In this document: one piece after another, positions 3,366 to 54,195 of the stretch
How the letters are laid out: every line of letters starts with the position of its first letter
How positions within the stretch are numbered: position 1 is the first letter of the stretch
From: the human T2T-CHM13v2.0 reference genome, Homo sapiens
Assembly (NCBI RefSeq): GCF_009914755.1
Contig: NC_060929.1
Direction: 5' to 3' (one strand)
DNA length: 64,000 nucleotides
Program-made: the position numbers and the translations under genes
Notes under the pieces: model-generated
Told to the model about the DNA's origin: nothing
The model's input: the letters and a program-made list of their open reading frames with translations, nothing else
Database searches by the model: none

Positions 3366-3845
3366 TATTTATTTCCTCAGGCCACCATAAAAAGTACCAC
3401 AAACTACACGGCCTACAACTACAGAAGGATATTCTATCATAGTTCTGGAGGCTAGAAATTCAAAATCAAGGTGTCAGCAGGGTAGTTCCTCTGGAAATTC
3501 GAGTTAGAATCTGTTCCATGCTTCTCTCCTAGCTTCTGGTGGCTGCCTACAGCTCTTAGTGTTACCCGGCTTGGAGCCTCATGTGTGATTTCAATCTCTG
3601 CCTCTTTCTTCCTATGGCCTCTTCTCTGTGCCTCTGCGTCTCTGTGTCTCAAATCTTCTTCCCTCTCTCTTATAGAGACACCAGTCGTTAGATTGAGTGT
3701 CCACCCTAAATCCAAAATGATCTTATCTCAAAATCCTTAACTTAATTACACCTACAAAGACTATTTCCAAATAAGGTCGTATTCACAGAAACCAGGCTTA
3801 GGAATAGGACATATCTCTTTGAGAAACACAGTTCAACCTATGACA
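3366..3845 (-). mobile_element. MaLR solo LTR (MLT1B/C-like)
   Basis: AGTTCTGGAGGCTAGAAATTCAAAATCAAGGTGTCAGCAGGG ... CCAAATAAGGTCGTATTCACAG ... ACACAGTTCAACCTATGACA. Confidence 0.85.
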
Positions 3846-4100
3846 GTAACTTTCAGGTACTGGCCAATGGAAGCCAATACCAATACTTTCCAGAACGACA
3901 CATTCAGTTTGAGTTCACCTTATTTCCCCATACTGGTCTCTGAATGGAGTGCTCTAACCCCTCCACATATAGGTTCAGAGGCACTTCAATCCCAGAATAA
4001 TCCTGTTTGGCTCTTCCTTTTCAATTGAATTCCTGTCTGTGAACTCCTGTTACATGGTCATCTGGAAAAATGACCACCTGCCTTCTCAGCCCCCAAGTGA

Positions 4101-48650: not shown

Positions 48651-48934
<284 letters not shown>

Positions 48935-50579: not shown

Positions 50580-51550
50580 TTCCCACAGCCATGTTTGTAT
50601 TTTAATCTAAAATCTGATGAACCCCAAATTACACCTCCAGCTCAGACTGCTCTCCTGCAATCATATTTCTATGTTTAGCTGCCTCGTGGATACCTGGAAG
50701 GTCTAGAGGCTCCACAAGTTCAGCCAGTCCAAAGCTTTAAGGAATGAATGAGTACATCTTTTCCTGCCAAAGCATTTTATCTTCATTGTATGTTTTCTTC
50801 ATTAACTCCATTTCCATTCACTTACCAGTCATTCATTCCTTGGGTTCTTTCTCCTCTTCCTCTCTGCCCCTGCATTAAGATGATATCTCTATGCCTATTG
50901 TATTCCATCAAAATTTTAAGTTACCTCTGCTGCTTCCCATTTTGAATCCTTCCATTCTCCTACCAAAGAGGACCTTCAGAAAAGCACATCTAGAACAGTT
51001 ACTCTCTACTTAAAACTCTTAATGGCTTCCGTATAGGAGAAAACCAAAACTTCTTAAGATGGTATACAAAGTCCTCCACACATGCTTACAATTAAGGCTT
51101 CAGGTCTAATTCATTCCCTTAACACTGCCCTTCCTTCTTTATGCATTATTCACCTTGTGTTCTAGACACTCAGAATTACATGTAGCTTTCCTTGTGTCAT
51201 GCTGTTTCACACCTCGAGGCCTCTGCTCAAATTCTTCAGGCTCTTTAGGATTTCATTATTTTTATACTCCTGGATAAACTTCCTTCGAGTACTTTAAGAT
51301 CCAGATTTCCCAGGATTTCTTACTCTACAAAATTGTCCTTAAGTCATCCACTCAGATTTTATTACTCTTTCCTTTGTGCCAGACTGTACCTAGAACACAA
51401 TTTAATATTCAAGCATACATTGTATTTTAAAATAATTTCCAGAATGTCTTACCTGATAGGCCTTGAAAACCGTATAACAGAGAAATGTCTTTGTTTCCCC
51501 TGCGTATTCCCAATACTTAGAGATGGGTGGTATATAAGAAACACTGAAAC
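50580..51550 (+). mobile_element. L2 relic
   Basis: CCTCCAGCTCAGACTGCTCTCCTG, TTAAAACTCTTAATGGCTTCC, ACACCTCGAGGCCTCTGCTCA are L2-like motifs. Confidence 0.6.
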
Positions 51551-51744
51551 AATTTAAATTAAAAAATAGTTAAGAACTGAATAAGATTATATGAGTTTTA
51601 CAATTTGTATGTCATTATTCTAAGTGTTGTGTGGAATATAAATAAAACAGTGTTCTACTCTTCATGAACTAATAGCACATGTTTATAAATAAAAATATAT
51701 AGCAAGATAGAAAGTGACTCTGCTGTGGGAAATTAGAGAGAGGG

Positions 51745-51797
51745 TTTTTTTGTTTGTTCTGTTTTGTTTTTGTTTTTGTTTTTGTTGTTTTGTTTTC
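51745..51797. repeat. (TTTTG)n simple repeat
   Basis: Read directly from sequence. Confidence 0.85.
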
Positions 51798-52167
51798 AAT
51801 CAAAAGGTCTAGAAAGTTTTCATGGAGAAAGAGGAATTAGGGTAGAGATGGGAATTGAGAATCATGAAACCCAAATCTGGACTGAAGTACATGGGCTTTA
51901 CCTGGAATTAATCATGAGCCCTCAAAGTTTCACAGCATGAGAATAAATGTTCAGAGCTAAGCTTCAACATGGTTAATTTGAGAGCAGTAGTTAGGATAAA
52001 TAGAATCAGTGAAGGCTGGAAACAGAGGCCATTTAAATAATTATTATAATTAATCATTATTATTAATTGTTAATAATTATTGTATATTTAATTATTTGAT
52101 TATAATTATTCAAACTGTTCTAAAGGACTTGATATTTGAATCTCAGAAATGGGGTTGGAGAGTTCTC

Positions 52168-52900
52168 GAGGGGAAAATGGCGGATAGGAGGCAAGACTAG
52201 ATTTGAGACTCACTCGCATTATGAACTTTTGCTCCAGAACTACTGCAGGAATATACCAGGAAAGCCGAGAGAATCCACAGATCCTCTGAAGGAAGCGGAT
52301 TGCTCCTGCAGGACTGGGGAGAAAGCCCAAATACTTGTCTGCCTAGTCGAGGAGGAGTGCCTCCCAGGCTTGGAGGGCTGGTGTCGAGTTGCGGACCTCA
52401 CCGTGTTGACCCTACCTACCTCACATGTGTCAAGACTCTCATGTCACAAGCGTATCTTGCTGCCCCACCTGCAGCACCATGCAGGACGTGGATCAGCTGA
52501 AGATGCTCCTCAGGAAAGAGGAGAGTCACAGCCGACGTCCTGGCCACGAAGTGAGAGAGCACTGCCCAGAAGCACAGCTCGGTTGGCTTCTGAGAACGGG
52601 ACTCTGTGCTTCAGGGAACATCTGATGGCTGAGATTTGTTTGCACGGCAGCTGCGGGACAAACCGTTGATGCTGAATCGGCAGAAATTGTCACAGAGGGC
52701 AGCAGGGACAGGACTGGCAAGGACTTGCAGCCTGGAGACCCCGTCTGGCCCCAGCTGGCCCCAAGCTGATCAAGTGACGGGCAAGTCATGTGACCTTCAC
52801 CAGGCTCTGCTTCCGAATCAGCAAAAGGGAGGCAGAGGCTGCCAGGCTGGGCGACAGAGCAAGACTCCATCTCAAAACAAAAAACAAACAAACAAACAAA
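52168..52900 (+). pseudogene. putative processed retrocopy of a spliced L1-promoter chimeric transcript (L1PB 5'UTR 52168-52335 + foreign GC-rich sequence + MIR + Alu 3' end + A-tail)
   Basis: L1PB 5' start GAGGGGAAAATGGCGGATAGGAGGCAAGACTAG. L1 homology stops at CCAAATACT, where the recalled consensus continues GTGAGT. CpG-rich body; ends GGGCGACAGAGCAAGACTCCATCTC(AAAC)n. Confidence 0.65.
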
Positions 52901-53749
52901 GTCTTTGATTCTCAGAGAGCATTTGTCTAATATAATAAAAAAGTGGCTTTCATAAAACCTCAAAACTGTTAAGGCATCTTCTAGGCTTCATGGATTCTTG
53001 ACATTTAATCGTTCTGTTCAGAAAAGTTTATAGAAGTCAAATAATTCTGTATAAATTATGGAAATCCGCAATACTTTTTTGTTGTTGAGATTTAAAGTTC
53101 TAAGGGATTGTCAATAGATATCAAAATATTAATCACTGGACAAACGCTCTTCAAAAACTTGTGGGTTTTTTTCTGTTGTATACATTTGAGTCCTGCATGC
53201 TGCGAAATTCTGAGAATAGAAGCATTAAATTGGTTTCTCTCGGGGGAAAACACAAAGAAATGGGGTTGCAGCTGGGAAAGCAAAGAGATAGGAACACACG
53301 TGGGACATATGGAGGACAGGATCCTTGAAACTCGGCAAAAGATTTCACAGAGTCAAACAAAAGGCATATGCACCCAAGAAGAATTAGAAGTTGTGAATCT
53401 GAGGAACTGAAAGAATCTCCATGCCATTAAGAGAAACAGGGAAAATGTGAAGAAGAGCTTTGGAAAGAACATTACCTCTGTTTTTTGTCAGGAAAAGATT
53501 TTGGCCATTCGTACAAAGATATTTAAAGACATCAGAATGAGTGTTAATGCCCAGGAATAAAATGTAGGAAATGTACAAAAGAAGTCTGGGAACAACTTAC
53601 ATGTAAGAAACTGGAGGAAGAAAGGAACCCCAGAAAAGGAGGAGAAAACAGGAAAACAATCATGAGATCGTGATCATTCAACCAAGGAAAAGCAAAGTGT
53701 CAGCATGAAGGTGCTGTTGACAAGATCTAGGGACGCTGAGGTATTGAAG

Positions 53750-53949
53750 CTGTACAGTCCAATACAGTAGCCAATGGCTATGAGTGCCTGTTTAAATGTA
53801 AATCAGACTAAATTTAAAATGTATTTCCTCAGTTGCATTAGCCACATTGTAAGTGTTTAATACCCACAAGAGGCAAGTGGGTTGTGTATAAAAATAGTGC
53901 AGCTATAGAACAAATTTATTTTGGCAGAAAGTTCTTTTAGATAGTATTG
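53750..53949. mobile_element. MER3 (hAT-Charlie MITE)
   Basis: GTCCAATACAGTAGCC...TTCCTCAGTTGCATTAGCCACATT...GCAGAAAGTTCT. Confidence 0.8.
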
Positions 53950-53999
53950 GATTGAGGAATATAAAGACTGAAATAAAAGTCAACATGAAGGTGGTCTCT

Positions 54000-54195
54000 C
54001 AAGGCAGTTAAGGAGTTAAGATTAGATCAGAATTCCTTACTCACTTACCCTAAGTGTGTCCTTCCACAAATTACTTGATCTCTTTAGACCCAATTATTAG
54101 CATTTACCTCCTGGAGTTGTTTTTTAAGTGATTAAATAGTAATATGTATGTATTTTATTGTTATTCCTGGACCACTGTTAGTCCTCAATAAAAGG
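54000..54195 (+). mobile_element. MIR relic
   Basis: CTCACTTAC...AAATTACTTGATCTCTTTAGACC...GTGATTAAATAG. Confidence 0.5.

What the first reader, a model, noticed from the sequence alone, without database searches (positions are those of the whole stretch)
52168..52900. GC/CpG-rich island that looks like a retrocopied, spliced L1-promoter chimeric RNA
Seen: a ~730 bp GC- and CpG-rich block in AT-rich, CpG-poor L2-derived DNA. It has four parts: an L1PB-type 5' end (52168-52335), ~370 bp of non-repeat sequence, a GC-rich MIR-like piece (~52700-52826), and an internally deleted Alu 3' end with an (AAAC)n tail. Recalled knowledge: the L1PB 5'UTR reads ...CCAAATACT GTGAGTGCCC, and here L1 homology stops exactly before that canonical GTGAGT donor. 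Inference: an L1 elsewhere began transcription at its own +1, spliced from its 5'UTR donor into host exons of a GC-rich region, and the RNA was reverse-transcribed from an Alu A-tail and inserted here. The copy would carry its own internal promoter, which would make it an SVA-like composite or a fossil of an unannotated lncRNA. The TSD is not clean. TTCTC (52163-52167) matches only the end of a possible 16-bp TSD AAAGTCTTTGATTCTC (52898-52913).
Basis: partly seen in the sequence, partly recalled or inferred. Interest (0 to 1): 0.85.

Follow-up and report, generated by a model that had tools for sequence, protein, structure and literature searches.

The report
Retrocopied L1-promoter / DCUN1D2 3'UTR chimera
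The GC-rich block is most of an old, single-copy retrocopy of a hybrid RNA that joined the first stretch of an L1 retrotransposon, cut exactly at its splice donor, to the tail of the chromosome 13 gene DCUN1D2; it is a rare kind of fossil, not a new repeat family.

Summary
In detail: 52168-52900 is GC-rich and has more CpG than its surroundings. It has an L1PB 5' end, unique sequence, and an Alu 3' fragment with an (AAAC)n tail; the MIR piece I identified by recall only.

The unit is larger than reported. The unique body (52336-52814) and the AT-rich DNA beyond the Alu tail (52899-53244) both match one other genome place. That place is a contiguous stretch of chr13, minus strand, 1.3-2.2 kb 3' of the stop codon of a DCUN1-family gene that I take to be DCUN1D2.

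The chr5 copy ends 15 nt after an ATTAAA, followed by an A-rich remnant. An exact 13-bp duplication (52145-52157 and 53256-53268) flanks the whole insert, so the insert is 52158-53255. The Alu piece is a secondary feature, not the priming tail.

L1 homology stops exactly at AAATACT|GTGAGT. Other L1PB copies in this genome join that same donor to three internal AG acceptors, so the donor was used in vivo.

Two things weaken the splicing reading:
- chr13 now has CG, not AG, at the join, although it follows a 13-of-16 pyrimidine tract.
- No L1PB 5'UTR lies in the ~207 kb upstream that I searched.

Verdict: an L1-exon-1::DCUN1D2-3'UTR chimeric retrocopy. It was probably made by splicing (cis or trans) and less probably by reverse-transcriptase template switching. 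It is single copy, with no sign of an SVA-like family.

The parts
52145..52157 (+). Left target-site duplication, AGAAATGGGGTTG
   Evidence: It is an exact 13-nt repeat of 53256-53268. It was found as the longest common substring of the 40 nt outside the two independently defined insert ends. Only 2 of 5000 random segment pairs at the same spacing in this window reach 13.
52158..52169 (+). 12-nt filler of unknown origin between the TSD and the L1 start
   Evidence: It is not part of the L1 alignment. The 26-nt tag made of the filler plus the L1 start occurs only here in the genome at up to 3 mismatches.
52170..52335 (+). L1PB-type 5'UTR from the element's own 5' end to its splice donor, with a ~29-nt internal deletion between 52203 and 52212
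   Evidence: 1436 genome candidates; 29 of 39 scored non-self matches end at 52335. In the alignment with 19 copies the start coincides with the 5' ends of full-length copies and the end falls at AAATACT|GTGAGT. Mean identity to those copies is 0.891; the copies among themselves average 0.867.
52336..52830 (+). Copy of chr13 sequence (putative DCUN1D2 3'UTR), GC-rich part, including a MIR-like stretch (MIR by recall)
   Evidence: The only other genome match is C13:112715048-112715525, minus strand, 79% by BLAST and contiguous. Identity is 82.5% in the global alignment, or 88.1% without CpG transitions.
52831..52898 (+). Alu 3' fragment with a ~28-nt internal deletion and an (AAAC)n tail, replacing ~23 bp of the parent sequence
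   Evidence: It is absent from chr13, which keeps its own ~23 bp there instead of an Alu. It matches the 3' end of the window's Alu at 48664-48921. GGGA (52827-52830) is shared by both sequences at the left join.
52899..53246 (+). Copy of chr13 sequence (putative DCUN1D2 3'UTR), AT-rich terminal part
   Evidence: The only other genome match is C13:112714662-112715010, minus strand, 89%. It adjoins the first chr13 block. Identity is 88.3%, or 89.8% without CpG transitions.
53224..53229 (+). ATTAAA polyadenylation signal
   Evidence: It is present in both the chr5 and chr13 copies. Homology to chr13 ends 15 nt after it.
53247..53255 (+). A-rich remnant of the poly(A) tail (AAAACACAA)
   Evidence: It follows the last base homologous to chr13 and is absent from chr13, which continues with T/G-rich sequence.
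53256..53268 (+). Right target-site duplication, AGAAATGGGGTTG
   Evidence: Exact repeat of 52145-52157.

Best explanation
An L1PB element was transcribed from its own 5' end. Its 5'UTR donor (AAATACT|GTGAGT) was joined by the spliceosome, in cis or in trans, to a point 1.34 kb into the 3'UTR of the chr13 gene DCUN1D2. The resulting RNA ended at that gene's ATTAAA poly(A) site. L1 proteins then reverse-transcribed this ~1.0-kb poly(A) RNA into chr5 by target-primed reverse transcription, leaving a 13-bp TSD. A short Alu 3' fragment replaced ~23 bp of the copy, either later or by template jumps during the same reverse transcription.

Shown: the anatomy, the parent locus, the TSD, the poly(A) site, the exact stop at the donor, and that this donor was spliced in vivo in the same L1 family.

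Inferred: that this particular junction was made by splicing, where the source L1 sat, and that the gene is DCUN1D2. The gene name rests on recalled gene order.

The confidence of 0.6 is for the spliceosomal join. That the locus is a retrocopy of an L1::DCUN1D2-3'UTR chimeric RNA, however joined, I hold at about 0.9.
For: - Retrocopy. The host part has one parent, contiguous on chr13. It ends 15 nt after ATTAAA, followed by an A-rich remnant that chr13 lacks. The exact 13-bp TSD is matched by only 2 of 5000 random pairs.
- Parent. It lies on the same strand as a DCUN1-family last coding exon ending ...GGKRSLF*, 1,344-2,207 nt 3' of the stop codon. A Na/H-exchanger-family gene lies further upstream on the other strand.
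- Donor. L1 homology stops exactly before GTGAGT.
- Donor use elsewhere. The same donor is joined in other genomic L1PB copies to three different internal acceptors, each preceded by a pyrimidine tract and AG...gagcag|GTGCTGG...cccacag|CAGCCAC and ...tttctcag|CTGGGAGG. For the first junction, all 40 scored candidates of 1627 span a 120-nt junction probe.
- Acceptor context. The chr13 join follows TTATCATCTGTTTCTC, 13 of 16 pyrimidines. Only 39 of 2187 positions in that 2.2-kb stretch are as pyrimidine-rich.
- One age. Without CpG transitions the two host parts are 88.1% and 89.8% identical to chr13. The L1 piece is 89.1% identical to family members.
Against: - chr13 reads ...TTTCTCG|TGTCC at the join: CG, not AG. 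No AG lies from 25 nt upstream to 13 nt downstream of it. Splicing there needs a later change in chr13, such as loss or change of one base, which I could not test without other primates.
- The join is inside a terminal exon, not at a known exon boundary.
- No L1PB 5'UTR lies in chr13 112,705,001-112,922,000, which covers ~207 kb upstream. Only the first 1.6 kb of L1 was used as the probe.
- The 12-nt filler gives no lead to a source L1.
- The A-tail remnant is short, at 9 nt.
Confidence: 0.6

Rival explanations
1. This is a template-switch chimera with no splicing. L1 reverse transcriptase copied 864 nt of DCUN1D2 mRNA from its poly(A) tail, then jumped onto an L1 RNA and copied it to its 5' end, as proposed for bipartite and tripartite chimeric retrogenes.
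For: - The parent has no AG at the join, and the join is inside an exon.
- No L1 lies near the parent.
- Template-switch chimeras flanked by one TSD are documented, including double switches (PMC2104539, passages read).
- The Alu fragment inside the copy could be a further pair of jumps, with GGGA shared at one join.
Against: - The jump would have landed exactly at a proven splice donor, one position among thousands in an L1 RNA.
- It would also have left the DCUN1D2 RNA right after an unusual pyrimidine tract (39 of 2187 positions).
- There is no microhomology at the L1/host join.
- In the mammalian chimeras described in PMC2104539 the 5' partner is mostly U6 or another small nuclear RNA.
Confidence: 0.2
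2. The join depends on the donor but is not a completed splice. For example, the reverse transcriptase jumped end-to-end from a broken or paused DCUN1D2 template onto the free L1 first exon released by the first step of splicing.
For: This explains an exact donor end together with a non-AG partner. In the mirror-image host-exon::L1 chimeras, splice sites are likewise often found on only one side of the junction (Law and Burns preprint 10.1101/2025.02.02.635956, passages read).
Against: No precedent was found in my searches. It does not explain the pyrimidine tract before the chr13 join. It needs a spliceosome-bound intermediate to serve as a template.
Confidence: 0.08
3. A multi-exon host RNA was spliced from the L1 donor, primed on the Alu A-tail at 52860-52900, and gave an SVA-like composite with its own promoter.
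For: The L1 5' end and the donor stop are real. An Alu 3' fragment with an A-rich tail is present.
Against: - The host part is one contiguous block in the parent.
- Homology to the parent continues 346 nt past the Alu tail.
- chr13 has no Alu at that spot and keeps its own ~23 bp there instead.
- The exact TSD encloses 52158-53255.
- Only two genome places exist, so there is no family.
Confidence: 0.02
4. The structure comes from separate DNA-level events: a 5'-truncated DCUN1D2 3'UTR retrocopy and an unrelated L1 5' fragment brought together by deletion or rearrangement. The 13-bp repeat would then belong to only one of them or be chance.
For: The 12-nt filler at the 5' junction and the 29-nt deletion inside the L1 piece show that the region has suffered small rearrangements.
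Against: - An L1 fragment consisting only of its first ~195 nt cannot insert on its own by target-primed reverse transcription.
- A deletion would have had to end exactly at the donor.
- All parts show the same divergence.
- The TSD encloses both parts.
Confidence: 0.05

Closest known systems
SpIREs (spliced integrated retrotransposed elements; Larson et al. 2018, PMC5860796, passages read)
   Same: A donor in the L1 5'UTR is used, and the spliced RNA is then retrotransposed with a TSD and a poly(A) tail.
   Different: In SpIREs the acceptor is inside the same L1, and the insert keeps the L1 body and 3' end. Here the partner is a host gene's 3'UTR, and no other L1 sequence is present. Larson et al. 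used L1.3-based probes and found no SpIRE97/622 in L1PB.
Host-exon::L1 chimeric insertions (Law and Burns 2025 preprint, 10.1101/2025.02.02.635956; abstract, section 32 and passages read)
   Same: A host RNA and an L1 RNA are fused in sense within one TSD. The junction falls at a splice site on one side, often with no partner site on the other. Most of the gene loci they examined have no L1 nearby (15 of 17), which led them to propose trans-splicing.
   Different: This is the mirror image. In their set the host's first exons are 5' and a near full-length L1 is 3'. Here the L1 first exon is 5' and the host 3'UTR is 3'. Their pipeline looked only at sequence 5' of L1.
Template-switch chimeric retrogenes (Buzdin/Gogvadze type; PMC2104539, passages read)
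   Same: Two or three transcripts are fused in the same orientation, flanked by one TSD, with a 3' part that carries the poly(A) tail.
   Different: Their 5' parts in mammals are mostly U6 and other small nuclear RNAs. Here the 5' part ends at a splice donor.
L1 3' transduction, orphan transduction and SVA exon trapping
   Same: Host sequence is mobilised because it forms part of a retroelement-initiated transcript that ends at a downstream host poly(A) site.
   Different: Here almost the whole L1 would have been removed as an intron. No source L1 next to the parent survives. There was no amplification.

Membership tests
L1-mediated retrocopy (processed pseudogene) | Flanking target-site duplication | tested here: met
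   Exact 13-bp repeat at 52145-52157 and 53256-53268; only 2 of 5000 random pairs reach 13.
L1-mediated retrocopy (processed pseudogene) | Ends at a poly(A) site of the parent transcript, with an A tail absent from the parent | tested here: met
   ATTAAA at 53224-53229. Homology ends 15 nt later, followed by AAAACACAA, which chr13 lacks. The tail remnant is short.
L1-mediated retrocopy (processed pseudogene) | A parent locus elsewhere, transcribed in the same sense | tested here: met
   The single parent lies on the chr13 minus strand, the same strand as the DCUN1-family coding exons, 3' of the stop codon. Transcription of that stretch as 3'UTR is inferred.
Spliced chimeric transcript (L1 donor to host acceptor) | Junction exactly at a GT donor | tested here: met
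   AAATACT|GTGAGT. The donor is used with three AG acceptors in other copies.
Spliced chimeric transcript (L1 donor to host acceptor) | AG acceptor at the parent's side of the junction | tested here: not met
   chr13 now reads TTTCTCG|TGTCC. A pyrimidine tract is present (13 of 16). The ancestral state could not be tested.
Spliced chimeric transcript (L1 donor to host acceptor) | Sense L1 upstream of the host acceptor (cis splicing) | tested here: not met
   No L1PB 5'UTR hit in chr13 112,705,001-112,922,000.
SpIRE | Acceptor within the same L1, with the L1 3' end retained | tested here: not met
   Everything 3' of 52335 is chr13-derived or Alu.
SVA-like composite retrotransposon family | Multiple dispersed copies of the same composite | tested here: not met
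   The body and the 3' part each have two places in the genome, self and parent.
CpG island (Gardiner-Garden and Frommer criteria, recalled) | GC above 0.5 and CpG o/e above 0.6 over 200 bp or more | tested here: not met
   GC is 0.546 but o/e is 0.42 for 52168-52900. The parent stretch has o/e 0.32.
Template-switch chimeric retrogene | The 5' partner is a whole small RNA, or breakpoints are unrelated to RNA processing sites | tested here: not met
   The L1 piece ends at a spliced donor. The host breakpoint follows a rare pyrimidine tract.

The most novel reading that the evidence does not exclude
This is the first recognised fossil of the reverse class of L1/host RNA recombination. An L1 first exon was spliced, possibly in trans, onto a host mRNA's 3'UTR and the product was retrotransposed, carrying an L1 promoter fragment to a new locus. 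Together with the abundant internally spliced L1PB copies seen here, it would mean that the L1PB 5'UTR donor was a promiscuous, frequently used splice site in the germline of early primates. A genome-wide scan at that donor should then reveal more such chimeras.
Probability: 0.35. Interest if true: 0.55.

Novelty: new variant of a known kind. Interest (0 to 1): 0.4.

Why it matters
- It gives a physical record that an L1 sense-strand donor was joined to a host mRNA and that the product was mobilised. This is the mirror image of the host-exon::L1 chimeras recently catalogued.
- It bears on whether L1 RNAs recombine with cellular RNAs by splicing in trans.
- It shows how an L1 promoter fragment can be carried to a new place without the L1 body.
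- It corrects the local picture. The GC-rich block is imported chr13 3'UTR sequence, not a CpG-island promoter or a new repeat family.
- It is one ancient copy with no annotated function, so its direct biological weight is small.

Tried and rejected
- Rfam scan of 51000-54000 at E up to 1: no match.
- Source L1 near the parent: no L1PB 5'UTR hit in 217 kb of chr13. All hits were to positions ~760-1018 of the probe copy L008, which I read as an Alu inserted in that copy.
- Source L1 via the 12-nt filler: the 26-nt tag occurs only here.
- Listing unspliced donors on chr13: 624 matches, control 4, but only 100 rows were listed and none from chr13, so this gave no answer for the parent region.
- Independent check of the empty site through a repeat copy spanning both flanks: two short weak hits for the left flank (E 3e-4 and 0.005) and none for the right, and no copy spanning both flanks, so the L2 origin of the flanks is untested.
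- Pfam Cullin_binding search of the genome: it did not pick up the chr13 gene. I found the gene instead with paralogue exon peptides.
- Capture-recapture estimate of ancestral CpG number (about 63 in 480 bp): implausible, so not used.
- Belancio et al. 2006 and 2008 are not held. What I say about them is recalled or taken from Larson et al.'s citations.
- Not in print, as far as my searches reach: searches turned up no description of a retrocopied L1-5'UTR-donor::host-3'UTR chimera, nor of spliced L1PB copies. Supplements were not consulted.
Introns of the parent gene were therefore probed only with the first 1.6 kb of L1.

Full report
**1. The observation**

The block is real. GC is 0.53-0.575 in 200-nt windows from 52200 to 52899, and 0.28-0.30 on either side. 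For 52168-52900, GC is 0.546 with 23 CpG and o/e 0.42. The two 2-kb flanks have o/e 0.16 and 0.14, and the whole window 0.18. So the block is CpG-enriched about 2.5-fold, but it is not a CpG island by the usual o/e 0.6 criterion (recalled). Rfam finds nothing in 51000-54000.

**2. The host part has one parent, and it extends past the Alu tail**

- The unique body 52336-52830 has exactly one other match in the genome: C13:112715048-112715525, minus strand, 79% identity, contiguous over query 1-479 of 495.
- The AT-rich DNA after the (AAAC)n tail, 52899-53300, also has exactly one other match: C13:112714662-112715010, minus strand, 89% over 1-346 of 402.
- The two chr13 blocks adjoin. The copied unit is therefore 52336-53244 with the Alu piece left out.
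- In the global alignment, chr13 has no Alu where chr5 has the Alu fragment. It keeps ~23 bp of its own sequence there, which I read as the rest of the MIR-like stretch (MIR is my recall, not tested). The Alu fragment is therefore a derived feature of the chr5 copy.
- GGGA is shared by both sequences at its left join.
- Compared with the window's Alu at 48664-48921, the fragment is the last ~46 nt of an Alu with a ~28-nt internal deletion, plus its tail.

**3. Retrocopy hallmarks**

- Homology to chr13 ends at 53244-53246, which is 15 nt after an ATTAAA present in both copies. chr5 then reads AAAACACAA, whereas chr13 goes on with T/G-rich sequence.
- I defined the insert ends without reference to any repeat: the L1 start at 52170 and the end of chr13 homology at 53246. 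The longest exact match between the 40 nt outside each end is AGAAATGGGGTTG, 13 nt, at 52145-52157 and 53256-53268.
- Only 2 of 5000 random pairs of 40-mers at the same spacing in this window reach 13.
- The TSD starts A-rich, as expected for L1 endonuclease targets (established knowledge).
- Twelve nucleotides (52158-52169) between the TSD and the L1 start are unexplained.

**4. What the parent is**

- Peptides translated from two exons of a chr3 Cullin_binding-domain gene hit the chr13 minus strand at 112733105-112732962 and 112718251-112718153, at 75% and 91% identity.
- The last coding exon, [25 protein letters not shown], starts at 112716946.
- Na/H-exchanger-domain exons lie at 112762309 and 112798239 on the plus strand.
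- From recalled gene order at 13q34 (DCUN1D2 head-to-head with TMCO3), I name the gene DCUN1D2.
- The parent stretch lies 1,344 to 2,207 nt 3' of its stop codon on the same strand. It is most simply the distal part of its 3'UTR, ending at the ATTAAA site. I could not see an annotation for chr13, so this is inferred.

**5. The L1 part and its donor**

- 52160-52340 has 1436 first-look candidates, of which 40 were scored. Of the 39 non-self long matches, 29 end exactly at 52335, 7 end at 52333-52334, and 3 at 52337-52338.
- In an alignment with 19 fetched copies, the window's piece starts where full-length copies start (GGGGAAAATGG...). It has a ~29-nt internal deletion and ends at AAATACT.
- Sixteen of the 19 copies continue with GTGAGT or a near variant: exact in 10, with 1-2 differences in 6.
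- The other 3 copies (L010, L012, L014) continue with sequence that lies ~950 nt further on in unspliced copies, where it is preceded by ...gagcag| in 6 of the 7 copies shown. This is a GT-AG intron removed.
- A 120-nt probe across that junction is spanned over at least 114 nt by all 40 scored candidates of 1627, including the probe's own locus.
- A pattern for the donor region followed by any base but G gives 49 hits against a control of 2. Of these, 27 have C, 16 have A, and 6 have T including this locus.
- I fetched 12 of the 49: 3 of the C class, 4 of the A class and the 5 other T class.
  - Eight are ordinary L1 with a mutated donor.
  - The 3 C-class copies join the donor to two further internal acceptors, ...cccacag|CAGCCAC and ...tttctcag|CTGGGAGG.
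  - One (L060) runs into AT-rich sequence that matches none of my L1 copies.
- The intact donor motif has 624 matches at up to 2 mismatches, against a control of 4.
- The donor was therefore a working splice site in this family, used with at least three acceptors.

**6. The junction with the host part**

- chr5 reads AAATACT|TGTCTGCC, and chr13 reads ...TTATCATCTGTTTCTCG|TGTCCGCC.
- The 16 nt ending one base before the join are 13 of 16 pyrimidines. Only 39 of 2187 positions in the 2.2-kb stretch are as rich.
- The dinucleotide at the join is CG, not AG. No AG lies between 25 nt upstream and 13 nt downstream of the join.
- There is no microhomology between L1 and chr13 at the join.
- No L1PB 5'UTR is present in chr13 112,705,001-112,922,000. 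The filler-plus-L1 tag finds no source element.

**7. Age**

- The GC-rich part is 82.5% identical to chr13. Of its 82 mismatches, 30 are CpG transitions, and without them identity is 88.1%.
- The AT-rich part is 88.3% identical, or 89.8% without CpG transitions.
- The L1 piece is on average 89.1% identical to the 19 copies, which are 86.7% identical to each other. Those copies were chosen as best matches, which biases the comparison.
- All parts therefore look equally old and as old as the L1PB family itself, that is, tens of millions of years. No finer dating is possible without orthologues.

**8. Weighing the mechanisms**

- That this is a retrocopy of a chimeric L1::DCUN1D2-3'UTR RNA I hold at about 0.9.
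- For how the two RNAs were joined, the exact stop at a proven donor and the rare pyrimidine tract favour the spliceosome. The missing AG and the missing upstream L1 count against simple cis-splicing.
- Cis-splicing would need two things. First, a sense L1 in or just upstream of the 3'UTR that was never fixed, which is plausible for a deleterious insertion. Second, one later base change or loss at the acceptor.
- Trans-splicing removes the first need. Law and Burns propose it for the mirror-image host-exon::L1 chimeras. In their set 15 of 17 gene loci lack an intronic L1, and splice sites are often found on only one side of the junction.
- Template switching by the L1 reverse transcriptase is documented for chimeric retrogenes, including double switches. 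It would also explain the Alu fragment. But it makes the donor position and the pyrimidine tract coincidences.

**9. Comparison with what is known, and novelty**

- It is not a SpIRE, because the acceptor is not in L1 and there is no L1 3' end.
- It is not an SVA-like family, because only two places exist in the genome.
- It is not a CpG island.
- It works like a SpIRE or a spliced 3' transduction, and it is the mirror image of the host-exon::L1 chimeras.
- My literature searches found no description of this arrangement.
- Larson et al. report no SpIRE97/622 in L1PB, using L1.3-derived probes.
- I rate it a new variant of a known kind, of moderate interest. It is a single ancient copy with no annotated function in the hub's table.

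Noticed in passing
L010:1565-1684, L012, L014, L054, L055, L056 (other chromosomes of G000): Many L1PB copies lack an intron-like segment that starts at the same AAATACT|GTGAGT donor and ends at one of three internal AG acceptors, about 470, 670 and 950 nt downstream. For the 950-nt class, all 40 scored candidates of 1627 span the junction. Larson et al. 2018 found no SpIRE97/622 in L1PB with L1.3 probes. Whether these copies are independent splicing events or a propagating short-5'UTR subfamily is open. L010 and L012 share a variant with the unspliced L013 and L025, whereas L014 does not, which hints at more than one origin.
   Followed up: partly
L060 = G000:C7:14528668-14528766 (minus strand): A second place where L1PB homology stops exactly at AAATACT and is followed by AT-rich sequence that matches none of the L1 copies held. 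It could be another donor-joined chimera or a truncated or deleted L1.
   Followed up: no
window 52161-52180 and 53233-53252: The 5' junction (..GTTCTCGAGGGGAAAATGG) resembles the 3' end of the copied RNA plus its tail (..TTTCTCTCGGGGGAAAACAC), matching at about 15 of 19 positions. This could be chance in low-complexity sequence or a trace of a further template jump. It is unexplained.
   Followed up: no
window 52203-52212: The L1 piece lacks ~29 nt that are present in all 19 aligned L1PB copies. GAGACTC occurs at the deletion edge, which suggests a small deletion between short repeats.
   Followed up: partly
window 51745-51800: A T-rich (TTTTG)n-like run. It could be the reverse-strand A-tail of an older retroelement upstream of the insert.
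   Followed up: no
window 52035-52115: About 80 nt made almost wholly of A and T with repeated ATTATT/TAATTA units, just upstream of the insertion site. This fits the A/T-rich targets that L1 endonuclease prefers.
   Followed up: no
L004 about 3715-4022 (chr13 about 112,715,715-112,716,022): An Alu in the sense orientation of the gene sits in the putative DCUN1D2 3'UTR, about 190 nt upstream of the point where the chr5 copy begins. Its tail carries two AATAAA motifs. It is not part of the chr5 copy.
   Followed up: no
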